Positions 46,907-52,274 of a DNA stretch of 64,000 nt are shown one piece after another. A model generated the notes under the pieces. That model ran no database searches. It was not told the origin of the DNA and saw nothing but the letters and a program-made list of their open reading frames with translations. Both the position numbers and the translations under genes were made by a program. Every line of letters begins with the position of its first letter. Positions within the stretch are counted from its first letter, which is position 1. Source of the DNA: a virus. Taxonomy: Duplodnaviria > Caudoviricetes. The stretch is from positions 371,219 through 435,218 of the IMG/VR virus record IMGVR_UViG_3300037313_001869; one strand, written 5' to 3'.

Positions 46907-47029
46907 TCATGAAGCTGACCTACACCGGCAACCCGTACAGACACCGACGACCAGCCCGTGCCGGTACCTCAGGGTCACGAACATCCGGCGGCAGGCCGTG
47001 CAGAAGAAGTCGACGGGCAGCCCGTTCAT
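46907..47029 (-). CDS. tiny Zn-finger protein
   Basis: CTAC..CTGC; ATGA overlap. Confidence 0.4.
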   Translation of the reverse strand: MNGLPVDFFCTACRRMFVTLRYRHGLVVGVCTGCRCRSAS

Positions 47030-47772
47030 GGCTTCGCCAGCTCGTACCACCGGGCCGAGAGCATCCGGGCGTAGCTCACCGGCGGCAGGCCGTAGTGCCC
47101 GAAGCTGAAGGCGTGGTTGAACTCGACCAGCACCGTCCTTCCATCGGCGAGCACGGCGAAGTCGAGCAGATACGCCTTCGGGGCCTTCTTGCCCATGGCC
47201 GCGACGGCCGCCTCGACCGTCTCCCGGTTCGGCGCCTTCGACCAGTCGCCCTTGTAGAGCCGGCAGCCGATGATCTGACGGTAAAGCACCATGCAACGGT
47301 ACTCAGCCACCATCTCGACCGGCTCCGACAGCCACACGGGCGTGTCATCGTCGTGGGTCACGATCCGGCGCCGGGACGCCGCGTCGGCTTGCCCACCCCA
47401 GCAGAAACCTGTAAACGCCTTGTGTTCCAGCGGTTTTACGAAGATCGGGTCGATGCTCGCCCGTACGTCGCTCAGCGTCCCCCGCCAGACCCGGCGGCCG
47501 AGGAACGGTTGGAGCGGCGAAGGGTAGTCGTCCGGGTCGGGGATGGGGCGCCCGAGCTTCAGGAGCCCGGCGTGAACGTCTCCCAGGTACCCGACGATAC
47601 CGACCTCGGGGCCGAGGTCTTCGAGCCTCAGAAGATCGTCAACCCAGTAGAAGGGCGCGACCTCGATCCCGAGGGTCGTGAAGCCCACGAGGGCCTGCGC
47701 CATCATCTCGGTCTCGGGGTAGTTCTCCCGGTGCCGGATGTAGACCTTCCGAAGCTCAACGTCGCTTGCCAT
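47026..47772 (-). CDS. ATP-grasp domain protein (DUF4343-like)
   Basis: IFVKP..KAFTG, EYRC, LDFAV..GRTVLVEFN..SFGHYG. Confidence 0.8.
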   Translation of the reverse strand: MASDVELRKVYIRHRENYPETEMMAQALVGFTTLGIEVAPFYWVDDLLRLEDLGPEVGIVGYLGDVHAGLLKLGRPIPDPDDYPSPLQPFLGRRVWRGTLSDVRASIDPIFVKPLEHKAFTGFCWGGQADAASRRRIVTHDDDTPVWLSEPVEMVAEYRCMVLYRQIIGCRLYKGDWSKAPNRETVEAAVAAMGKKAPKAYLLDFAVLADGRTVLVEFNHAFSFGHYGLPPVSYARMLSARWYELAKP

Positions 47773-47789
47773 GGTTCGAGTTACACCGC

Positions 47790-48248
47790 TCAGGGGCGGC
47801 TGGGCCTGAGGGCCTCGGGGAGCTGACCCCAAGCATCAGCTTCAACACGCACGACTAGATAGGACGCCCCTCTCAGGGTGGTCTTCTCGCGAGACACGGC
47901 CCAGGACGAGCCCAGGATAGTGACGGTCCGGCGGTCTTCTTCAGGCGCAAGAAAAAGGAAGTGGGTGCCTCCCCTCCGAGCGGCAGCCTCGGCGGCCTCA
48001 GCATGGGCCTCTTCGAGCCTTGTGCTGCTCCAGTGGCTTGATGCCGTGATCGTCAGCGTGCCGATGGGCCTGGCATTTGCCCCATCGAGGGCAGCCACAT
48101 CACCTTCGTAAAAGCGAACGGCCTTCGGGGTTGAAACGGTTTTCGGTTGGGTAGCCGTCTTGGGCTGATAGCGGATTGTCCAGTAGTCTGTGCAACCAAC
48201 CGAGACGAGAGCCAAGGCCAGGACGGCGATGCGGTAGAAGCCAGGCAT
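47790..48248 (-). CDS. putative lipoprotein
   Basis: MPGFYRIAVLALALVSVGC signal and lipobox; EAAARRGGTH. Confidence 0.7.
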   Translation of the reverse strand: MPGFYRIAVLALALVSVGCTDYWTIRYQPKTATQPKTVSTPKAVRFYEGDVAALDGANARPIGTLTITASSHWSSTRLEEAHAEAAEAAARRGGTHFLFLAPEEDRRTVTILGSSWAVSREKTTLRGASYLVVRVEADAWGQLPEALRPSRP

Positions 48249-48539: not shown

Positions 48540-48590
48540 TGGCTCTCTCAAGCGCCCCAAAAGGGGAGCTACTCACGACGATCTTTCCGC

Positions 48591-48619
48591 TCAAGCATCC
48601 CCGTGCGTAGGGGAGAGCC
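48591..48619 (-). CRISPR. single repeat (array A remnant)
   Basis: TCAAGCATCCCCGTGCGTAGGGGAGAGCC; eroded copy near 48548. Confidence 0.6.
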
Positions 48620-48805
48620 GCACGCCCCCCTACGGGGGCCTTCGCTTCTACCCAAACACTCCCGTGCTTGCGGGCTGTGCCCGCATCGATATTCCAAGCA
48701 CCCACGGGGTGCCGACCCTCGCGAGTCGGCCTTCCTCGTTCATCGGACCCTCTTACAGACGGGTAACCTCCCGAGGCTGCAAAACCGGAGCTTTTCCGGC
48801 CGAAG
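48620..48805 (-). ncRNA. omegaRNA/tracr-like scaffold copy A
   Basis: core TTCCTCGTTCATCGGACCC..GGTAACCTCCCGAGGCTG shared with copies B and C. Confidence 0.65.
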
Positions 48806-48846
48806 CTGTAAAATCCAACTGTAATCGTTCCCGAGGTACCACTCAG

Positions 48847-48997
48847 CCAAGCACCCCTGGGCGTAGGGGAGAGCCCCTCGGTCTCGACTTGCTGCACGAG
48901 CCAGGTTCCAAGCATCCCCGCGCGTAGGGGAGAACCGGGACGTTGAACGAGCCCCAGAGACACGTCTTCCAAGCATCCCCGCGCGTAGGGGAGAACC
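48847..48997 (-). CRISPR. mini CRISPR array B (3 x 29-nt repeats, 2 x 32-nt spacers)
   Basis: CCAAGCATCCCCGCGCGTAGGGGAGAACC at 48908 and 48969, variant at 48847; 61-nt period. Confidence 0.9.
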
Positions 48998-49165
48998 CCT
49001 TGCTTTCTTCGATGTTTTTGGTGTTGAACGTCTCCGAAAACCGTCGGTAACTCCCCTAGCCACACAGGGTATGAGCCCTCGCGAACCCACGTTCCTCGTT
49101 CATCGGACCCCTTTACGAGCAGGTAACCTCCCGAGGCTGCTTCACCGGGGCTTTCCCGGCTGACA
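48998..49165 (-). ncRNA. omegaRNA/tracr-like scaffold copy B
   Basis: directly downstream of tnpB; hairpins; anti-repeat at 49046-49059; CGGTGTA just upstream. Confidence 0.75.
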
Positions 49166-49173
49166 GTTCTCTC

Positions 49174-50433
49174 TTACACCGAGGGAATTTGCGTCTCCTC
49201 GACCACGGCCACTTTTTTCTTCTTGCCCTTCAGCTTGACGCTGACCCTCTTTTTGATCGGAGCAGGCTCGACAGCGGCGGCAAGGGCCCGGGCCTCGATG
49301 TTCCTGGCCGCGTTCAGGTCGGCATTCTCGGCGTGCCCGCACTTCTGGCAGGCGAAGACGGCCTGCGAGGGCCGGTTCTTTTCGTCGATGTGGCCGCACT
49401 TCGAGCACATCTGAGACGTATACGCGGCCGGCACCTCGATTACCTTCGCGCCCGTCTCGATGGCCTTGTACTTGAGCATATCGCCGAACATGCCCCAGCC
49501 GGCGTCGAGGATCGAACGGTTTAGGCCGCTCTTCTGTCGGACCTTTTTACCGGGTTTTTTCTTGGTACCGGAGGCGCTCTTCGACATGTTCTTGATGGCC
49601 AGCTTCTCGATGCCGATCGTGCCGAACGTGTCGACGTAGTGGCGGCTCTGCTCGTGGAGAAGGTGCTTGCGCTGGCGCGCGATCTTCTGCTGGATCTTCG
49701 CGACCTTCATGAGCGCCTTGTGCCGGTTGTTCGAGCCCTTCTTCTTGTGGTCGGCCTCGCGCTGGGCCCGGGCGAGCTTCTCACGCATCCGGTCGTAGAA
49801 GTGAGGGTTCTCGACCATACCCCCGGCCGAGTCGACCATGAGCTTCGCGACGCCCCGATCGATACCGACCGACGGACGAGGCTCCGGTTTGGGGTCAGGT
49901 ACCTCGATCTCAGCGGGAAAAACCGCGTACCACTCATCGACCTCACGCACGATCGAACACGACGAGAGCTTGCCCTGCATAGGCCGGTCGAGGCGGATCT
50001 CGATGAGCCCGAGGTCATCTCCCTTGCGGGCCTTCGTGACCCGGAGCTGGGCTTTACGGCCCTCTCCGGTCACCTTCCAATGTGCGGTCGTAGAGAAATA
50101 GAACTTGATGCTATTCGTCCGCTTCTTGAAGCGCGGCCTCTTGGCCAGCTTCTTGAAGAAGCGCTCCCACGCTGTGTCCAGTATCCGCGGAACTTCCTGC
50201 CGGACGCAGCATGGGATACGGGCAAGCCACGGATCGTCAGGCAGCAGCAAGGTCACTTCCTTGTTCTGCGACATGTGTGACGGATAGACCGGGTCCGTCC
50301 TCCATATACCCATGAGCCGCTGCTCATGGGCAAGATTCCAGAGACGCCGTAGCGTCCTGTCCCAACCGTAGAGCATCTTCTCCTGGGCGGGCGTCGGATA
50401 GATGCGGTACTTGAAGGTCTTTTTTACGATCAT
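49174..50433 (-). CDS. tnpB: TnpB/Cas12f-like RNA-guided endonuclease
   Basis: N-terminal KYRIYPT, RuvC-I GIDRG, RuvC-II IEKL, Zn finger CSKC/CQKC, RuvC-III NADLNAARNI. Confidence 0.95.
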   Translation of the reverse strand: MIVKKTFKYRIYPTPAQEKMLYGWDRTLRRLWNLAHEQRLMGIWRTDPVYPSHMSQNKEVTLLLPDDPWLARIPCCVRQEVPRILDTAWERFFKKLAKRPRFKKRTNSIKFYFSTTAHWKVTGEGRKAQLRVTKARKGDDLGLIEIRLDRPMQGKLSSCSIVREVDEWYAVFPAEIEVPDPKPEPRPSVGIDRGVAKLMVDSAGGMVENPHFYDRMREKLARAQREADHKKKGSNNRHKALMKVAKIQQKIARQRKHLLHEQSRHYVDTFGTIGIEKLAIKNMSKSASGTKKKPGKKVRQKSGLNRSILDAGWGMFGDMLKYKAIETGAKVIEVPAAYTSQMCSKCGHIDEKNRPSQAVFACQKCGHAENADLNAARNIEARALAAAVEPAPIKKRVSVKLKGKKKKVAVVEETQIPSV

Positions 50434-50499
50434 ATGGGTTCTCGAATCGAACAGCCCCCCTCAAAAGAGCCGCTGTTTCCCTTGCTCATGATGACCTTC

Positions 50500-50708
50500 C
50501 CAAGCATCCCCGTACCCGTGAGGGATTCCGAGCAAGTGGTGGAGACGACTGAAGCAGCCAAGCACCCCCGCACCTGTGGAAGACCCGGCTGCGGATCTGG
50601 TCAGGTCAGGGACCTCGTCCAAGCATCCCCGCACCCATGGGAGATCCTTCCGCGTCTCGATGAGGCGCTACTCGGACGACCAAGCACCCCCGCGCTCGTG
50701 GGAGATCC
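50500..50708 (-). CRISPR. mini CRISPR array C (4 degenerate repeats, 3 spacers)
   Basis: CCAAGCA(T/C)CCCCG-type repeats at 50500, 50558, 50619 and 50680 (periods 58, 61, 61). Confidence 0.85.
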
Positions 50709-50890
50709 TCTTGTTTTCTTCGGTGTTTTTGGTATCAAACGCTTCCGAAAACCGTTGGTAGCTCCCGCGAGCAGGCGTCTTTTGGGTATGGGGTGTGAGC
50801 CCTCACGAGCCCACGCTTCCTCGTTCATCGGACCCCTTTACAAGCGGGTAGCCTCCCGAGGCTGTACCGCCGAGGCTTTCTCGGCTACGC
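50709..50890 (-). ncRNA. omegaRNA/tracr-like scaffold copy C
   Basis: colinear with copy B; anti-repeat at 50757-50772; CGGTGTA at 50898-50904. Confidence 0.75.
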
Positions 50891-50912
50891 TTTTTTCTAC
50901 ACCGGTCGCGGG

Positions 50913-52234: not shown

Positions 52235-52274
52235 GAGGGGGCGTGCCTTTCGGTTGCCTGATTCTACACCGGGC

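What the first reader, a model, noticed from the sequence alone, without database searches (positions are those of the whole stretch)
49046..50772. Anti-repeat inside each scaffold co-varies with its own array's repeat
Seen (minus strand): scaffold B has TAGGGGAGTTACC, complementary to repeat B 5' end GGTTCTCCCCTA. At the same position scaffold C has GCTCGCGGGAGCTACC, complementary to its proximal repeat GGATCTCCCACGAGC. Copy A has CGTAGGGG (48627-48634) matching CCCCTACG in its repeat. Inference: compensatory change indicates a selected scaffold:repeat duplex, so the scaffold could act in cis on the first repeat or as a tracrRNA for downstream crRNAs, giving orthogonal guide sets for one nuclease.
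Basis: partly seen in the sequence, partly recalled or inferred. Interest (0 to 1): 0.75.

Follow-up and report, generated by a model that had tools for sequence, protein, structure and literature searches.

The report
Phage TnpB guide scaffolds pairing with repeats
A 435-kb soil phage carries one small transposon-type DNA cutter (TnpB) with three copies of its guide-RNA scaffold, and two of those copies end in a stretch that pairs with the CRISPR-like repeats next to them; this is a real but already described step between transposon guides and CRISPR.

Summary
On the minus strand, the tail of scaffold B (49046-49073) and of scaffold C (50757-50797) pairs with about 24 of the 29 nt of its first repeat, not only the 5' end. 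RNAduplex gives -33.8 and -31.6 kcal/mol, against -17.8 and -20.4 for shuffled tails.

B and C differ by five two-sided compensatory changes. Six related TnpB loci have the same scaffold, tail, linker and repeat layout. In 8 of 8 loci the cognate repeat is the best partner, and the cognate assignment beats all 40,320 permutations.

This duplex corresponds to the guide-proximal terminal stem of the TnpB omegaRNA. Scaffold A keeps it as a compact hairpin. In B and C it is lengthened, and its 3' strand plus guide is multiplied into 29-nt repeat / 32-nt spacer arrays.

That is the published TranC / type V-U idea of an omegaRNA split into tracrRNA and crRNA. The scan has met the same kind in at least six other genomes, mostly phages.

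"Orthogonal guide sets" is not supported. Tail C matches only its proximal repeat, and cross-pairs remain stable. The copy-A point is weak. No RNA data, targets or adaptation genes were found.

The parts
50897..50904 (-). CGGTGTAG motif just upstream of scaffold C; candidate phage promoter element
   Evidence: The motif occurs 18 times in the window against 2.0 expected. That it is a promoter is inference.
50787..50897 (-). Scaffold C core (omegaRNA-like, three hairpins)
   Evidence: Covariance model R1 scores 124 bits here. Stems show compensatory changes among A, B and C.
50757..50797 (-).
   Evidence: RNAduplex with C_R1 gives -31.6; 4 of 1000 shuffles reach it.
50709..50756 (-). 48-nt A-rich linker C, the apical loop of the cis stem
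   Evidence: About 82% identical to linker B (family D4). It is never used in the best duplex.
50500..50708 (-). Array C: four diverged 29-nt repeats (50680-50708, 50619-50647, 50558-50586, 50500-50528) with spacers of 32, 32 and 29 nt
49174..50433 (-). tnpB gene, 419 aa, with RuvC D192/E276/D372 and two CxxC pairs
   Evidence: Pfam gives OrfB_IS605, Cas12f1-like_TNB and HTH. These residues are invariant in the alignment. ISDra2 TnpB matches at E 2e-31. It is single copy in the genome.
49174..49181 (-). CGGTGTAA motif overlapping the tnpB stop codon, just upstream of scaffold B
49063..49172 (-). Scaffold B core, in the native position downstream of tnpB
   Evidence: Model R1 scores 123 bits.
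49046..49073 (-).
   Evidence: RNAduplex with B_R1 gives -33.8; 0 of 1000 shuffles reach it.
48998..49045 (-). 48-nt linker B
48847..48997 (-). Array B: three 29-nt repeats (48969-48997, 48908-48936, 48847-48875) with 32-nt spacers
   Evidence: All three pair with tail B at -30 to -34.
48694..48812 (-). Scaffold A: core plus a compact terminal hairpin (GCACCC-CGU-GGGUGC) and a UUGG tag that runs directly into a guide, as in a classical omegaRNA
   Evidence: Model R1 scores 128 bits. Sequence.
48548..48693 (-). Guide of A (48666-48693), then a 14-nt repeat fragment, a 32-nt segment (A_s2), the full repeat A_R3 (48591-48619), a 22-nt segment and a 21-nt hairpin repeat (48548-48568)
   Evidence: A_R3 pairs with tail B at -31.9.

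Best explanation
The locus is a domesticated, single-copy TnpB RNA-guided nuclease in a 435-kb phage, served by three guide-RNA modules derived from its omegaRNA.

This stem is the counterpart of stem 4 in ISDra2 omegaRNA and of repeat:anti-repeat duplex 2 in Cas12f.

Module A keeps this stem as a 6-bp hairpin followed directly by a guide. In modules B and C the stem has grown to about 23 bp with a 48-nt apical loop (the linker). Its 3' strand plus guide has been multiplied into a CRISPR-like array of 29-nt repeats and 32-nt spacers.

Shown here: the stem and its co-variation, the homology of the scaffold with omegaRNAs at the 3' end of related tnpB genes, an intact catalytic triad, and the absence of a TnpA transposase.

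Inferred: each scaffold-array unit is one transcript, possibly started at the CGGTGTAR motif. The tail pairs in cis with repeat 1 to give a natural single guide. Scaffold molecules pair in trans with later repeats as a tracrRNA would, after cleavage of the long duplex (for example by RNase III), so that one nuclease is loaded with up to about 11 guides against unknown targets, presumably competing mobile elements.
For: - TnpB identity and active-site residues.
- Scaffold copies: three, all at this locus.
- Scaffold structure: compensatory stems among A, B and C.
- Homology: the same scaffold is found at the 3' end of tnpB in dozens of relatives.
- Tail:repeat duplex: beyond shuffles.
- Same layout elsewhere: L005, L085, L168, L010, L245 and L248.
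- Co-variation across loci: the cognate repeat is best in 8 of 8 rows and the cognate assignment is the unique optimum of 40,320. The duplex always starts at repeat nt 1 and never uses the linker.
- Compensation: 21 of 29 repeat columns show two-sided changes. There are many G-U pairs, which would be A-C mismatches on the other strand, so the constraint is on the RNA of this strand.
- Compact counterparts of the same stem: scaffold A, the upstream scaffold in L005, and L086.
- Mobility: no Y1 transposase and a single tnpB copy in the genome.
- Literature: omegaRNA as a natural single guide whose stem 4 equals R:AR-2 (PMC10097598). TranC and V-U systems.
Against: - There is no RNA evidence, no target and no TAM.
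- The distal repeats of array C fit tail C no better than chance, so trans use of that array through a long duplex is doubtful.
- Each repeat can also fold into its own CCCC/GGGG hairpin (-7 to -11 kcal/mol), which competes with the duplex.
- The simple scans found no promoter or terminator on the minus strand.
- Base pairs were derived separately for each locus, which inflates pair counts. The permutation test does not have this bias.
Confidence: 0.72

Rival explanations
1. Cis only. Each scaffold plus its first repeat and first spacer is one long omegaRNA with an extended terminal stem-loop. The further repeats are inert tandem duplications that are decaying, and no tracrRNA-like action in trans occurs.
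For: L248 has the extended stem with a single repeat. Tail C is compensated only for C_R1, and C_R2 to C_R4 have diverged. No adaptation genes were found.
Against: Array B's repeats are identical or nearly so, and all fit tail B. L168 keeps nine repeats, eight of them identical and one with a single mismatch, with unique 32-nt spacers, and L005 keeps three identical repeats. That is hard to explain without use or recent ruler-based acquisition. Published TranC systems use array-derived crRNAs.
Confidence: 0.17
2. Each repeat works through its own internal hairpin (CCCC-loop-GGGG plus the GCUUGG tag), which mimics the compact terminal hairpin of scaffold A. On this reading the tail's complementarity is a relic of how the DNA was duplicated, for example a former transposon-end hairpin, and is not a selected RNA duplex.
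For: All repeats fold alone at -7 to -11 kcal/mol. A_R4 is a clean CCCC-UUUU-GGGG hairpin. In true IS605 relatives such as L246, which sits next to a Y1 transposase, the same region overlaps the transposon right end.
Against: Co-variation holds across eight loci whose sequences differ. G-U pairs are specific to this strand. The duplex is about 20 kcal/mol more stable than the hairpin. The phage has no TnpA.
Confidence: 0.07
3. The arrays are captured or mimicked type I-E-format CRISPR arrays that are used mainly with a host Cascade. TnpB's scaffold only borrows them.
For: The 29-nt repeat, 32-nt spacer and 61-nt period match the E. coli K-12 I-E array fetched here. Sequence likeness to that repeat is modest, z about 2 to 3.4.
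Against: The 3' tag of the repeats equals the lineage-specific 3' end of the omegaRNA: CUUGG here, AUUGG in L005 and L010, GCUGG in L168, L245 and L248, CUUACC in L085 and L086. This points to origin from the omegaRNA. No bacterial array with the same repeat core was found.
Confidence: 0.04

Closest known systems
TranC (transposon-CRISPR intermediate) systems, Jin et al., Cell 2025 (doi 10.1016/j.cell.2025.09.004). The paper is not held; it was read through PMC13565253, PMC13639567 and bioRxiv 10.64898/2026.03.27.714800.
   Same: A TnpB-sized nuclease next to a short CRISPR array without adaptation genes. The guide scaffold is derived from the omegaRNA/reRNA, with an anti-repeat between the gene and the array. 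Some members are phage-borne (CauTranC9).
   Different: Repeats here are 29 nt. The characterised clades 3, 9, 11 and 20 have 32-38 nt repeats. The protein is much closer to ISDra2 TnpB (E 2e-31, full length) than to LaTranC (E 1e-9, C-terminal part only). There are three scaffold copies around one gene, one of them still of the unsplit omegaRNA type. Scaffold and array are contiguous on one strand. Clade membership could not be tested.
ISDra2 TnpB with its omegaRNA (PDB 8H1J, 8EXA; PMC10097598)
   Same: Best solved relative. Same domain set and catalytic triad. The omegaRNA lies at or after the 3' end of the gene with the guide at its 3' end. A guide-proximal stem closed by a loop makes it a natural single guide.
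   Different: No TnpA, no transposon copies, a single locus in a phage. The terminal stem is lengthened to about 23 bp with a 48-nt loop, and its 3' strand is repeated as an array.
Type V-U* candidate subtypes and omegaRNA arrays, Altae-Tran et al., PNAS 2023 (PMC10691335)
   Same: Independent links between TnpB and a downstream CRISPR array, proposed to arise by serial duplication of omegaRNA segments. Arrays of whole omegaRNAs are also described.
   Different: That work is a census. The base-pair-level tail:repeat co-variation and the three-state locus are specific to this lineage.
Cas12f (type V-F) tracrRNA:crRNA
   Same: Dual-RNA logic in which two repeat:anti-repeat duplexes replace the pseudoknot and stem 4 of the omegaRNA.
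   Different: Cas12f proteins match only over the RuvC part (E 1e-18 or weaker). Dimerisation and REC expansions were not examined.

Membership tests
TnpB / OMEGA (IS200/IS605 accessory nuclease with omegaRNA) | RuvC-like fold with a D-E-D triad and a zinc-ribbon (TNB) domain | tested here: met
   Pfam gives OrfB_IS605 (2e-25) and Cas12f1-like_TNB (4e-24). D192, E276, D372 and four Cys are invariant in a 30-sequence alignment. The protein aligns to ISDra2 TnpB over residues 1-387.
TnpB / OMEGA (IS200/IS605 accessory nuclease with omegaRNA) | Structured omegaRNA at or after the 3' end of the gene, with the guide at its 3' end | tested here: met
   The covariance model built from scaffolds A, B and C finds the homologous scaffold at the 3' end of tnpB in relatives. 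Scaffold A runs directly into a guide. Expression was not tested.
TnpB / OMEGA (IS200/IS605 accessory nuclease with omegaRNA) | Part of a mobile element: TnpA nearby, or several copies in the genome | tested here: not met
   No Y1_Tnp match in the complete 435-kb genome. One tnpB copy. The relative L246 does sit next to a Y1 transposase.
TranC / type V-U CRISPR-associated TnpB | Effector adjacent to a CRISPR array of regular repeats and unique spacers | tested here: met
   Three plus four 29-nt repeats at a 61-nt period, with spacers of 32 nt (one of 29 nt). The arrays are very short and array C is degenerate.
TranC / type V-U CRISPR-associated TnpB | Scaffold RNA with an anti-repeat complementary to the repeat (split omegaRNA) | tested here: met
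   This is shown at the sequence level only.
TranC / type V-U CRISPR-associated TnpB | Array-derived crRNAs guide cleavage together with the tracrRNA | not testable with these tools
   No RNA run holds the locus. This needs expression and cleavage assays.
TranC / type V-U CRISPR-associated TnpB | Placement inside one of the published TranC clades or V-U branches | not testable with these tools
   The Cell paper is not held. LaTranC matches weakly, at E 1e-9.
Type I-E CRISPR array | 29-nt repeat and 32-nt spacer geometry with a repeat hairpin | tested here: met
   Geometry is identical to the E. coli K-12 array. Sequence likeness is only z 2 to 3.4.
Type I-E CRISPR array | Linked cas genes (cas1, cas2, Cascade) | tested here: not met
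   No Cas1 in the phage or in the records that hold L005, L010 and L085. The neighbouring ORFs have no cas domains.

The most novel reading that the evidence does not exclude
This TnpB lineage builds its arrays in the type I-E format (29-nt repeat, 32-nt spacer). The terminal omegaRNA hairpin would be recognised by a host type I-E Cas1-Cas2, so a phage-borne TnpB without adaptation genes could gain new guides by borrowing host adaptation. The three modules in one locus (unsplit, split with a homogeneous array, split with a decaying array) would then be successive stages of that process caught together.
Probability: 0.12. Interest if true: 0.7.

Novelty: new member of a known kind. Interest (0 to 1): 0.4.

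Why it matters
The locus and its relatives form a natural series. It runs from a compact omegaRNA hairpin, to a lengthened stem with one repeat (L248), to a mini-array (this phage, L005, L085, L010, L245), to a nine-repeat array (L168). This shows at base-pair resolution how a repeat:anti-repeat duplex can grow out of the terminal stem of a transposon guide RNA.

That supports the published split-omegaRNA origin of type V tracrRNA and crRNA with independent comparative data. It also offers a 419-aa nuclease with natural single-guide and dual-guide forms for testing. It does not open a new kind of system.

Tried and rejected
- **Rfam:** no family matched in the window at gathering thresholds.
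- **Promoters and terminators:** the simple scans found nothing on the minus strand between scaffold and array.
- **RNA evidence:** no RNA holder is listed. Two soil-metagenome DNA runs hold the locus. The second covers 48968-50785 without any difference, and its contigs break at the repeats, so nothing could be learned about array variation.
- **Spacer targets:** no second site in the phage genome apart from an 18-nt out-of-register match of A_s2. No hit in INPHARED phages. No exact 22-nt seed match for one spacer in IMG/VR or for two spacers in GTDB genomes.
- **Repeat core CCCCTACGCNCGGGGAT:** none in IMG/VR. In GTDB genomes there were 86 stretches, all with a single match apart from L256, which is the known L010 contig. 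Single hits are expected by chance by my estimate.
- **Cas1:** absent from the phage and from the three relatives' records that could be searched.
- **L123:** its array has an unrelated 36-nt repeat that follows a complete omegaRNA, so it was left out of the co-variation test.
- **Pseudoknot:** I looked by eye for a partner of the 3' tag (GCUUGG) in the 5' part of the scaffold. At most 3 bp could be proposed, so no claim is made.
- **RNAcofold of whole scaffolds with repeat-spacer units:** the results are noisy because spacers also pair. They were used only as a rough check.

Full report
**What is there**

All features lie on the minus strand. In order:
- scaffold C: core 50787-50897, tail 50757-50797
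- a 48-nt linker
- array C: four diverged 29-nt repeats, 50500-50708
- a 419-aa ORF, 50433-49174
- scaffold B: core 49063-49172, tail 49046-49073
- a 48-nt linker
- array B: three 29-nt repeats, 48847-48997
- scaffold A: 48694-48812
- a guide and degenerate repeats, down to 48548

The ORF is a TnpB. Pfam gives OrfB_IS605, Cas12f1-like_TNB and HTH. D192, E276, D372 and two CxxC pairs are invariant. The best solved relative is ISDra2 TnpB, matched over its full length at E 2e-31.

The window is the last 64 kb of a 435,218-bp virus record with direct terminal repeats. That genome has one tnpB, no Y1 transposase and no Cas1. Neighbouring ORFs carry no cas domains.

**The scaffold is an omegaRNA**

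The three cores are 63-100% identical. They share three hairpins, and 7 of 28 predicted pairs show two-sided changes. A covariance model built from them finds the same RNA at the 3' end of tnpB in dozens of relatives from genomes, viral contigs and metagenomes. The closest proteins are at most 50% identical. One relative, L246, sits beside a Y1 transposase, so the clade includes true IS605 elements.

**The observation**

The pairing is longer than reported. The whole tail after the last core hairpin pairs with repeat nt 1 to about 24.
- In B the helices are GGU:ACC, CUCCCCUA:UAGGGGAG, CGCGCGGGG:CCCUGUGUG and AUG:CAU.

| Pair | dG (kcal/mol) | Shuffle mean (sd) | Shuffles reaching it |
|---|---|---|---|
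| Tail B with B_R1 | -33.8 | -17.8 (3.7) | 0 of 1000 |
| Tail C with C_R1 | -31.6 | -20.4 (3.4) | 4 of 1000 |

B and C differ on both sides at five pairs, and three G-U pairs become G-C.

**Homologous loci**

Six relatives have the same order of core, tail, linker (9-42 nt, all but L248's ending in AAGG, CAGG or AAGA) and repeat:

| Locus | Source | Repeats |
|---|---|---|
| L005 | Gammaproteobacteria MAG | 5 |
| L085 | viral contig | 2 |
| L168 | metagenome contig | 9 |
| L010 | Woesearchaeota MAG, scaffold upstream of tnpB | 2 |
| L245 | closest protein, 50% identity | about 4, degenerate |
| L248 | phage-like context | 1 |

I used one uniform definition for the test. The tail was taken from 12 nt before the end of the model hit up to the repeat start, and the partner was the first repeat. 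Under this definition:
- RNAduplex ranks the cognate repeat first in 8 of 8 rows.
- The cognate assignment sums to -244.3, the single best of 40,320 permutations (mean -181.3).
- The duplex always begins at repeat nt 1.
- The linker is never used.

Twenty-one of 29 repeat columns show two-sided changes, and G-U pairs are frequent. G-U pairs would be mismatches on the other strand or in DNA, so the constraint acts on the RNA of this strand. The pair counts come from per-locus optimisation and lean towards pairing. The permutation test does not.

**What the duplex is**

Unsplit members of the clade end in a short hairpin followed by the same lineage-specific tag that ends the repeats:
- scaffold A: GCACCC-CGU-GGGUGC, then UUGG
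- L086: ACGCAC-GAAGA-GUGCGU, then AGAGCUUACC, against the repeats of its neighbour L085, which end in GGAGCUUACC
- the upstream scaffold of L005

So the repeat is the 3' strand of the omegaRNA's guide-proximal terminal stem plus its tag, and the tail is the 5' strand. In ISDra2 this stem (stem 4, closed by a UUUA loop) is the structural counterpart of Cas12f's repeat:anti-repeat duplex 2, which led its authors to call the omegaRNA a natural single guide and to propose a split origin of tracrRNA and crRNA (PMC10097598). The TranC work reports such split intermediates. Altae-Tran et al. proposed arrays arising by serial duplication of omegaRNA segments. This locus fits that picture.

**Cis or trans**

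Cis pairing with the first repeat is the better supported.
- L248 has the long stem with one repeat only.
- Tail C is matched only to C_R1. C_R2 to C_R4 give -23.8, -23.6 and -19.8, about the shuffle level, and fit tail B equally.

Trans pairing is plausible in two cases.
- Array B and A_R3 pair with tail B at -30 to -34.
- Relatives with homogeneous arrays such as L168 and L005 could also use it.

Non-cognate B/C duplexes remain at -24 to -26, so the two modules are not orthogonal.

Each scaffold-array unit is probably one transcript. No terminator-like site separates them. A motif, CGGTGTAR, lies immediately upstream of scaffolds B and C; it occurs 18 times in the window against 2 expected. 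Reading it as a promoter is inference.

**Copy A**

Its duplex with A_R3 (-30.9; 12 of 1000 shuffles reach it) is matched by a natural control, C_s2 with C_R3 at -29.3. I do not count it as an anti-repeat.

**Function and limits**

No RNA data are available. A second soil metagenome carries the identical locus. No spacer target was found in the phage itself, in INPHARED, or by exact seed search.

The 29-nt repeat and 32-nt spacer format equals that of type I-E arrays, and the repeats resemble the E. coli repeat only weakly, at z 2 to 3.4. This is a lead on how spacers might be acquired, not a finding.

**Comparison and novelty**

The system works like a TranC / type V-U system and like a TnpB omegaRNA with an enlarged terminal stem.
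- It meets the sequence-level criteria of TranC: an adjacent array and an anti-repeat derived from the omegaRNA.
- Its clade placement and crRNA use could not be tested.
- It fails the mobility criterion of a transposon TnpB.
- It differs from the characterised TranC clades in repeat length and in being far closer to ISDra2 TnpB than to LaTranC.

Earlier agents of this scan reported phage TnpB-CRISPR units of the same kind in at least six other genomes. I therefore class it as a new member of a known kind. Its value is comparative: three states in one locus, and base-pair-level co-variation across a clade.

Noticed in passing
window, 18 sites including 49174-49181, 50897-50904, 52264-52271 and 47781-47788: The motif CGGTGTAR occurs 18 times against 2.0 expected. 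It usually lies just upstream of genes and of scaffolds B and C. With the bases that follow, it resembles an extended -10 element (TGTAGAAT at 52264). It is a candidate phage promoter or start signal.
   Followed up: partly
window 48847-48997 and 50500-50708; L005 3776-4037; L168 4186-4721: The arrays of this TnpB clade use 29-nt repeats and mostly 32-nt spacers (61-nt period). This is the geometry of type I-E arrays such as the E. coli K-12 array (L336). Sequence likeness to the E. coli repeat is only modest. It hints at ruler-based acquisition by a borrowed Cas1-Cas2.
   Followed up: partly
L168 3897-4130: Upstream of the nine-repeat array lie three tandem half-scaffolds of about 60-100 nt. 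The first two end in GGCUGG directly before short variable segments (an omegaRNA array with long repeats). The third carries the anti-repeat.
   Followed up: partly
L123 3612-3990 (IMG/VR contig of 297 kb): A complete omegaRNA of the other 3'-domain type is followed by three copies of an unrelated 36-nt repeat with its own 3' hairpin. This may be a separately captured array.
   Followed up: no
L010 2215-2436 (Woesearchaeota MAG contig): A GC-rich scaffold and a two-repeat mini-array sit upstream of an AT-rich tnpB in AT-rich DNA. The repeat core (CCCCTACGCACGGGGAT) is identical to that of A_R3 in the phage, although the proteins are only 33% identical.
   Followed up: no
window 48620-48651 and genome 336611-336634: The spacer-like segment A_s2 shares 18 of 18 nt with a perfect terminator-like hairpin (CGAAGGCCCC-CGTA-GGGGCCTTCG) elsewhere in the same phage genome. 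The match is out of register for a guide.
   Followed up: partly
L177 1429-1650: An omegaRNA with a direct scaffold-guide junction is followed, after a 38-nt segment, by a second copy of its 3' hairpin and tag. This looks like the smallest possible array.
   Followed up: no
window 47026-47832 (minus): A 268-aa ORF with an R2K-clade ATP-grasp domain (PF18299, E 1e-39) lies about 0.7 kb beyond the end of module A.
   Followed up: no
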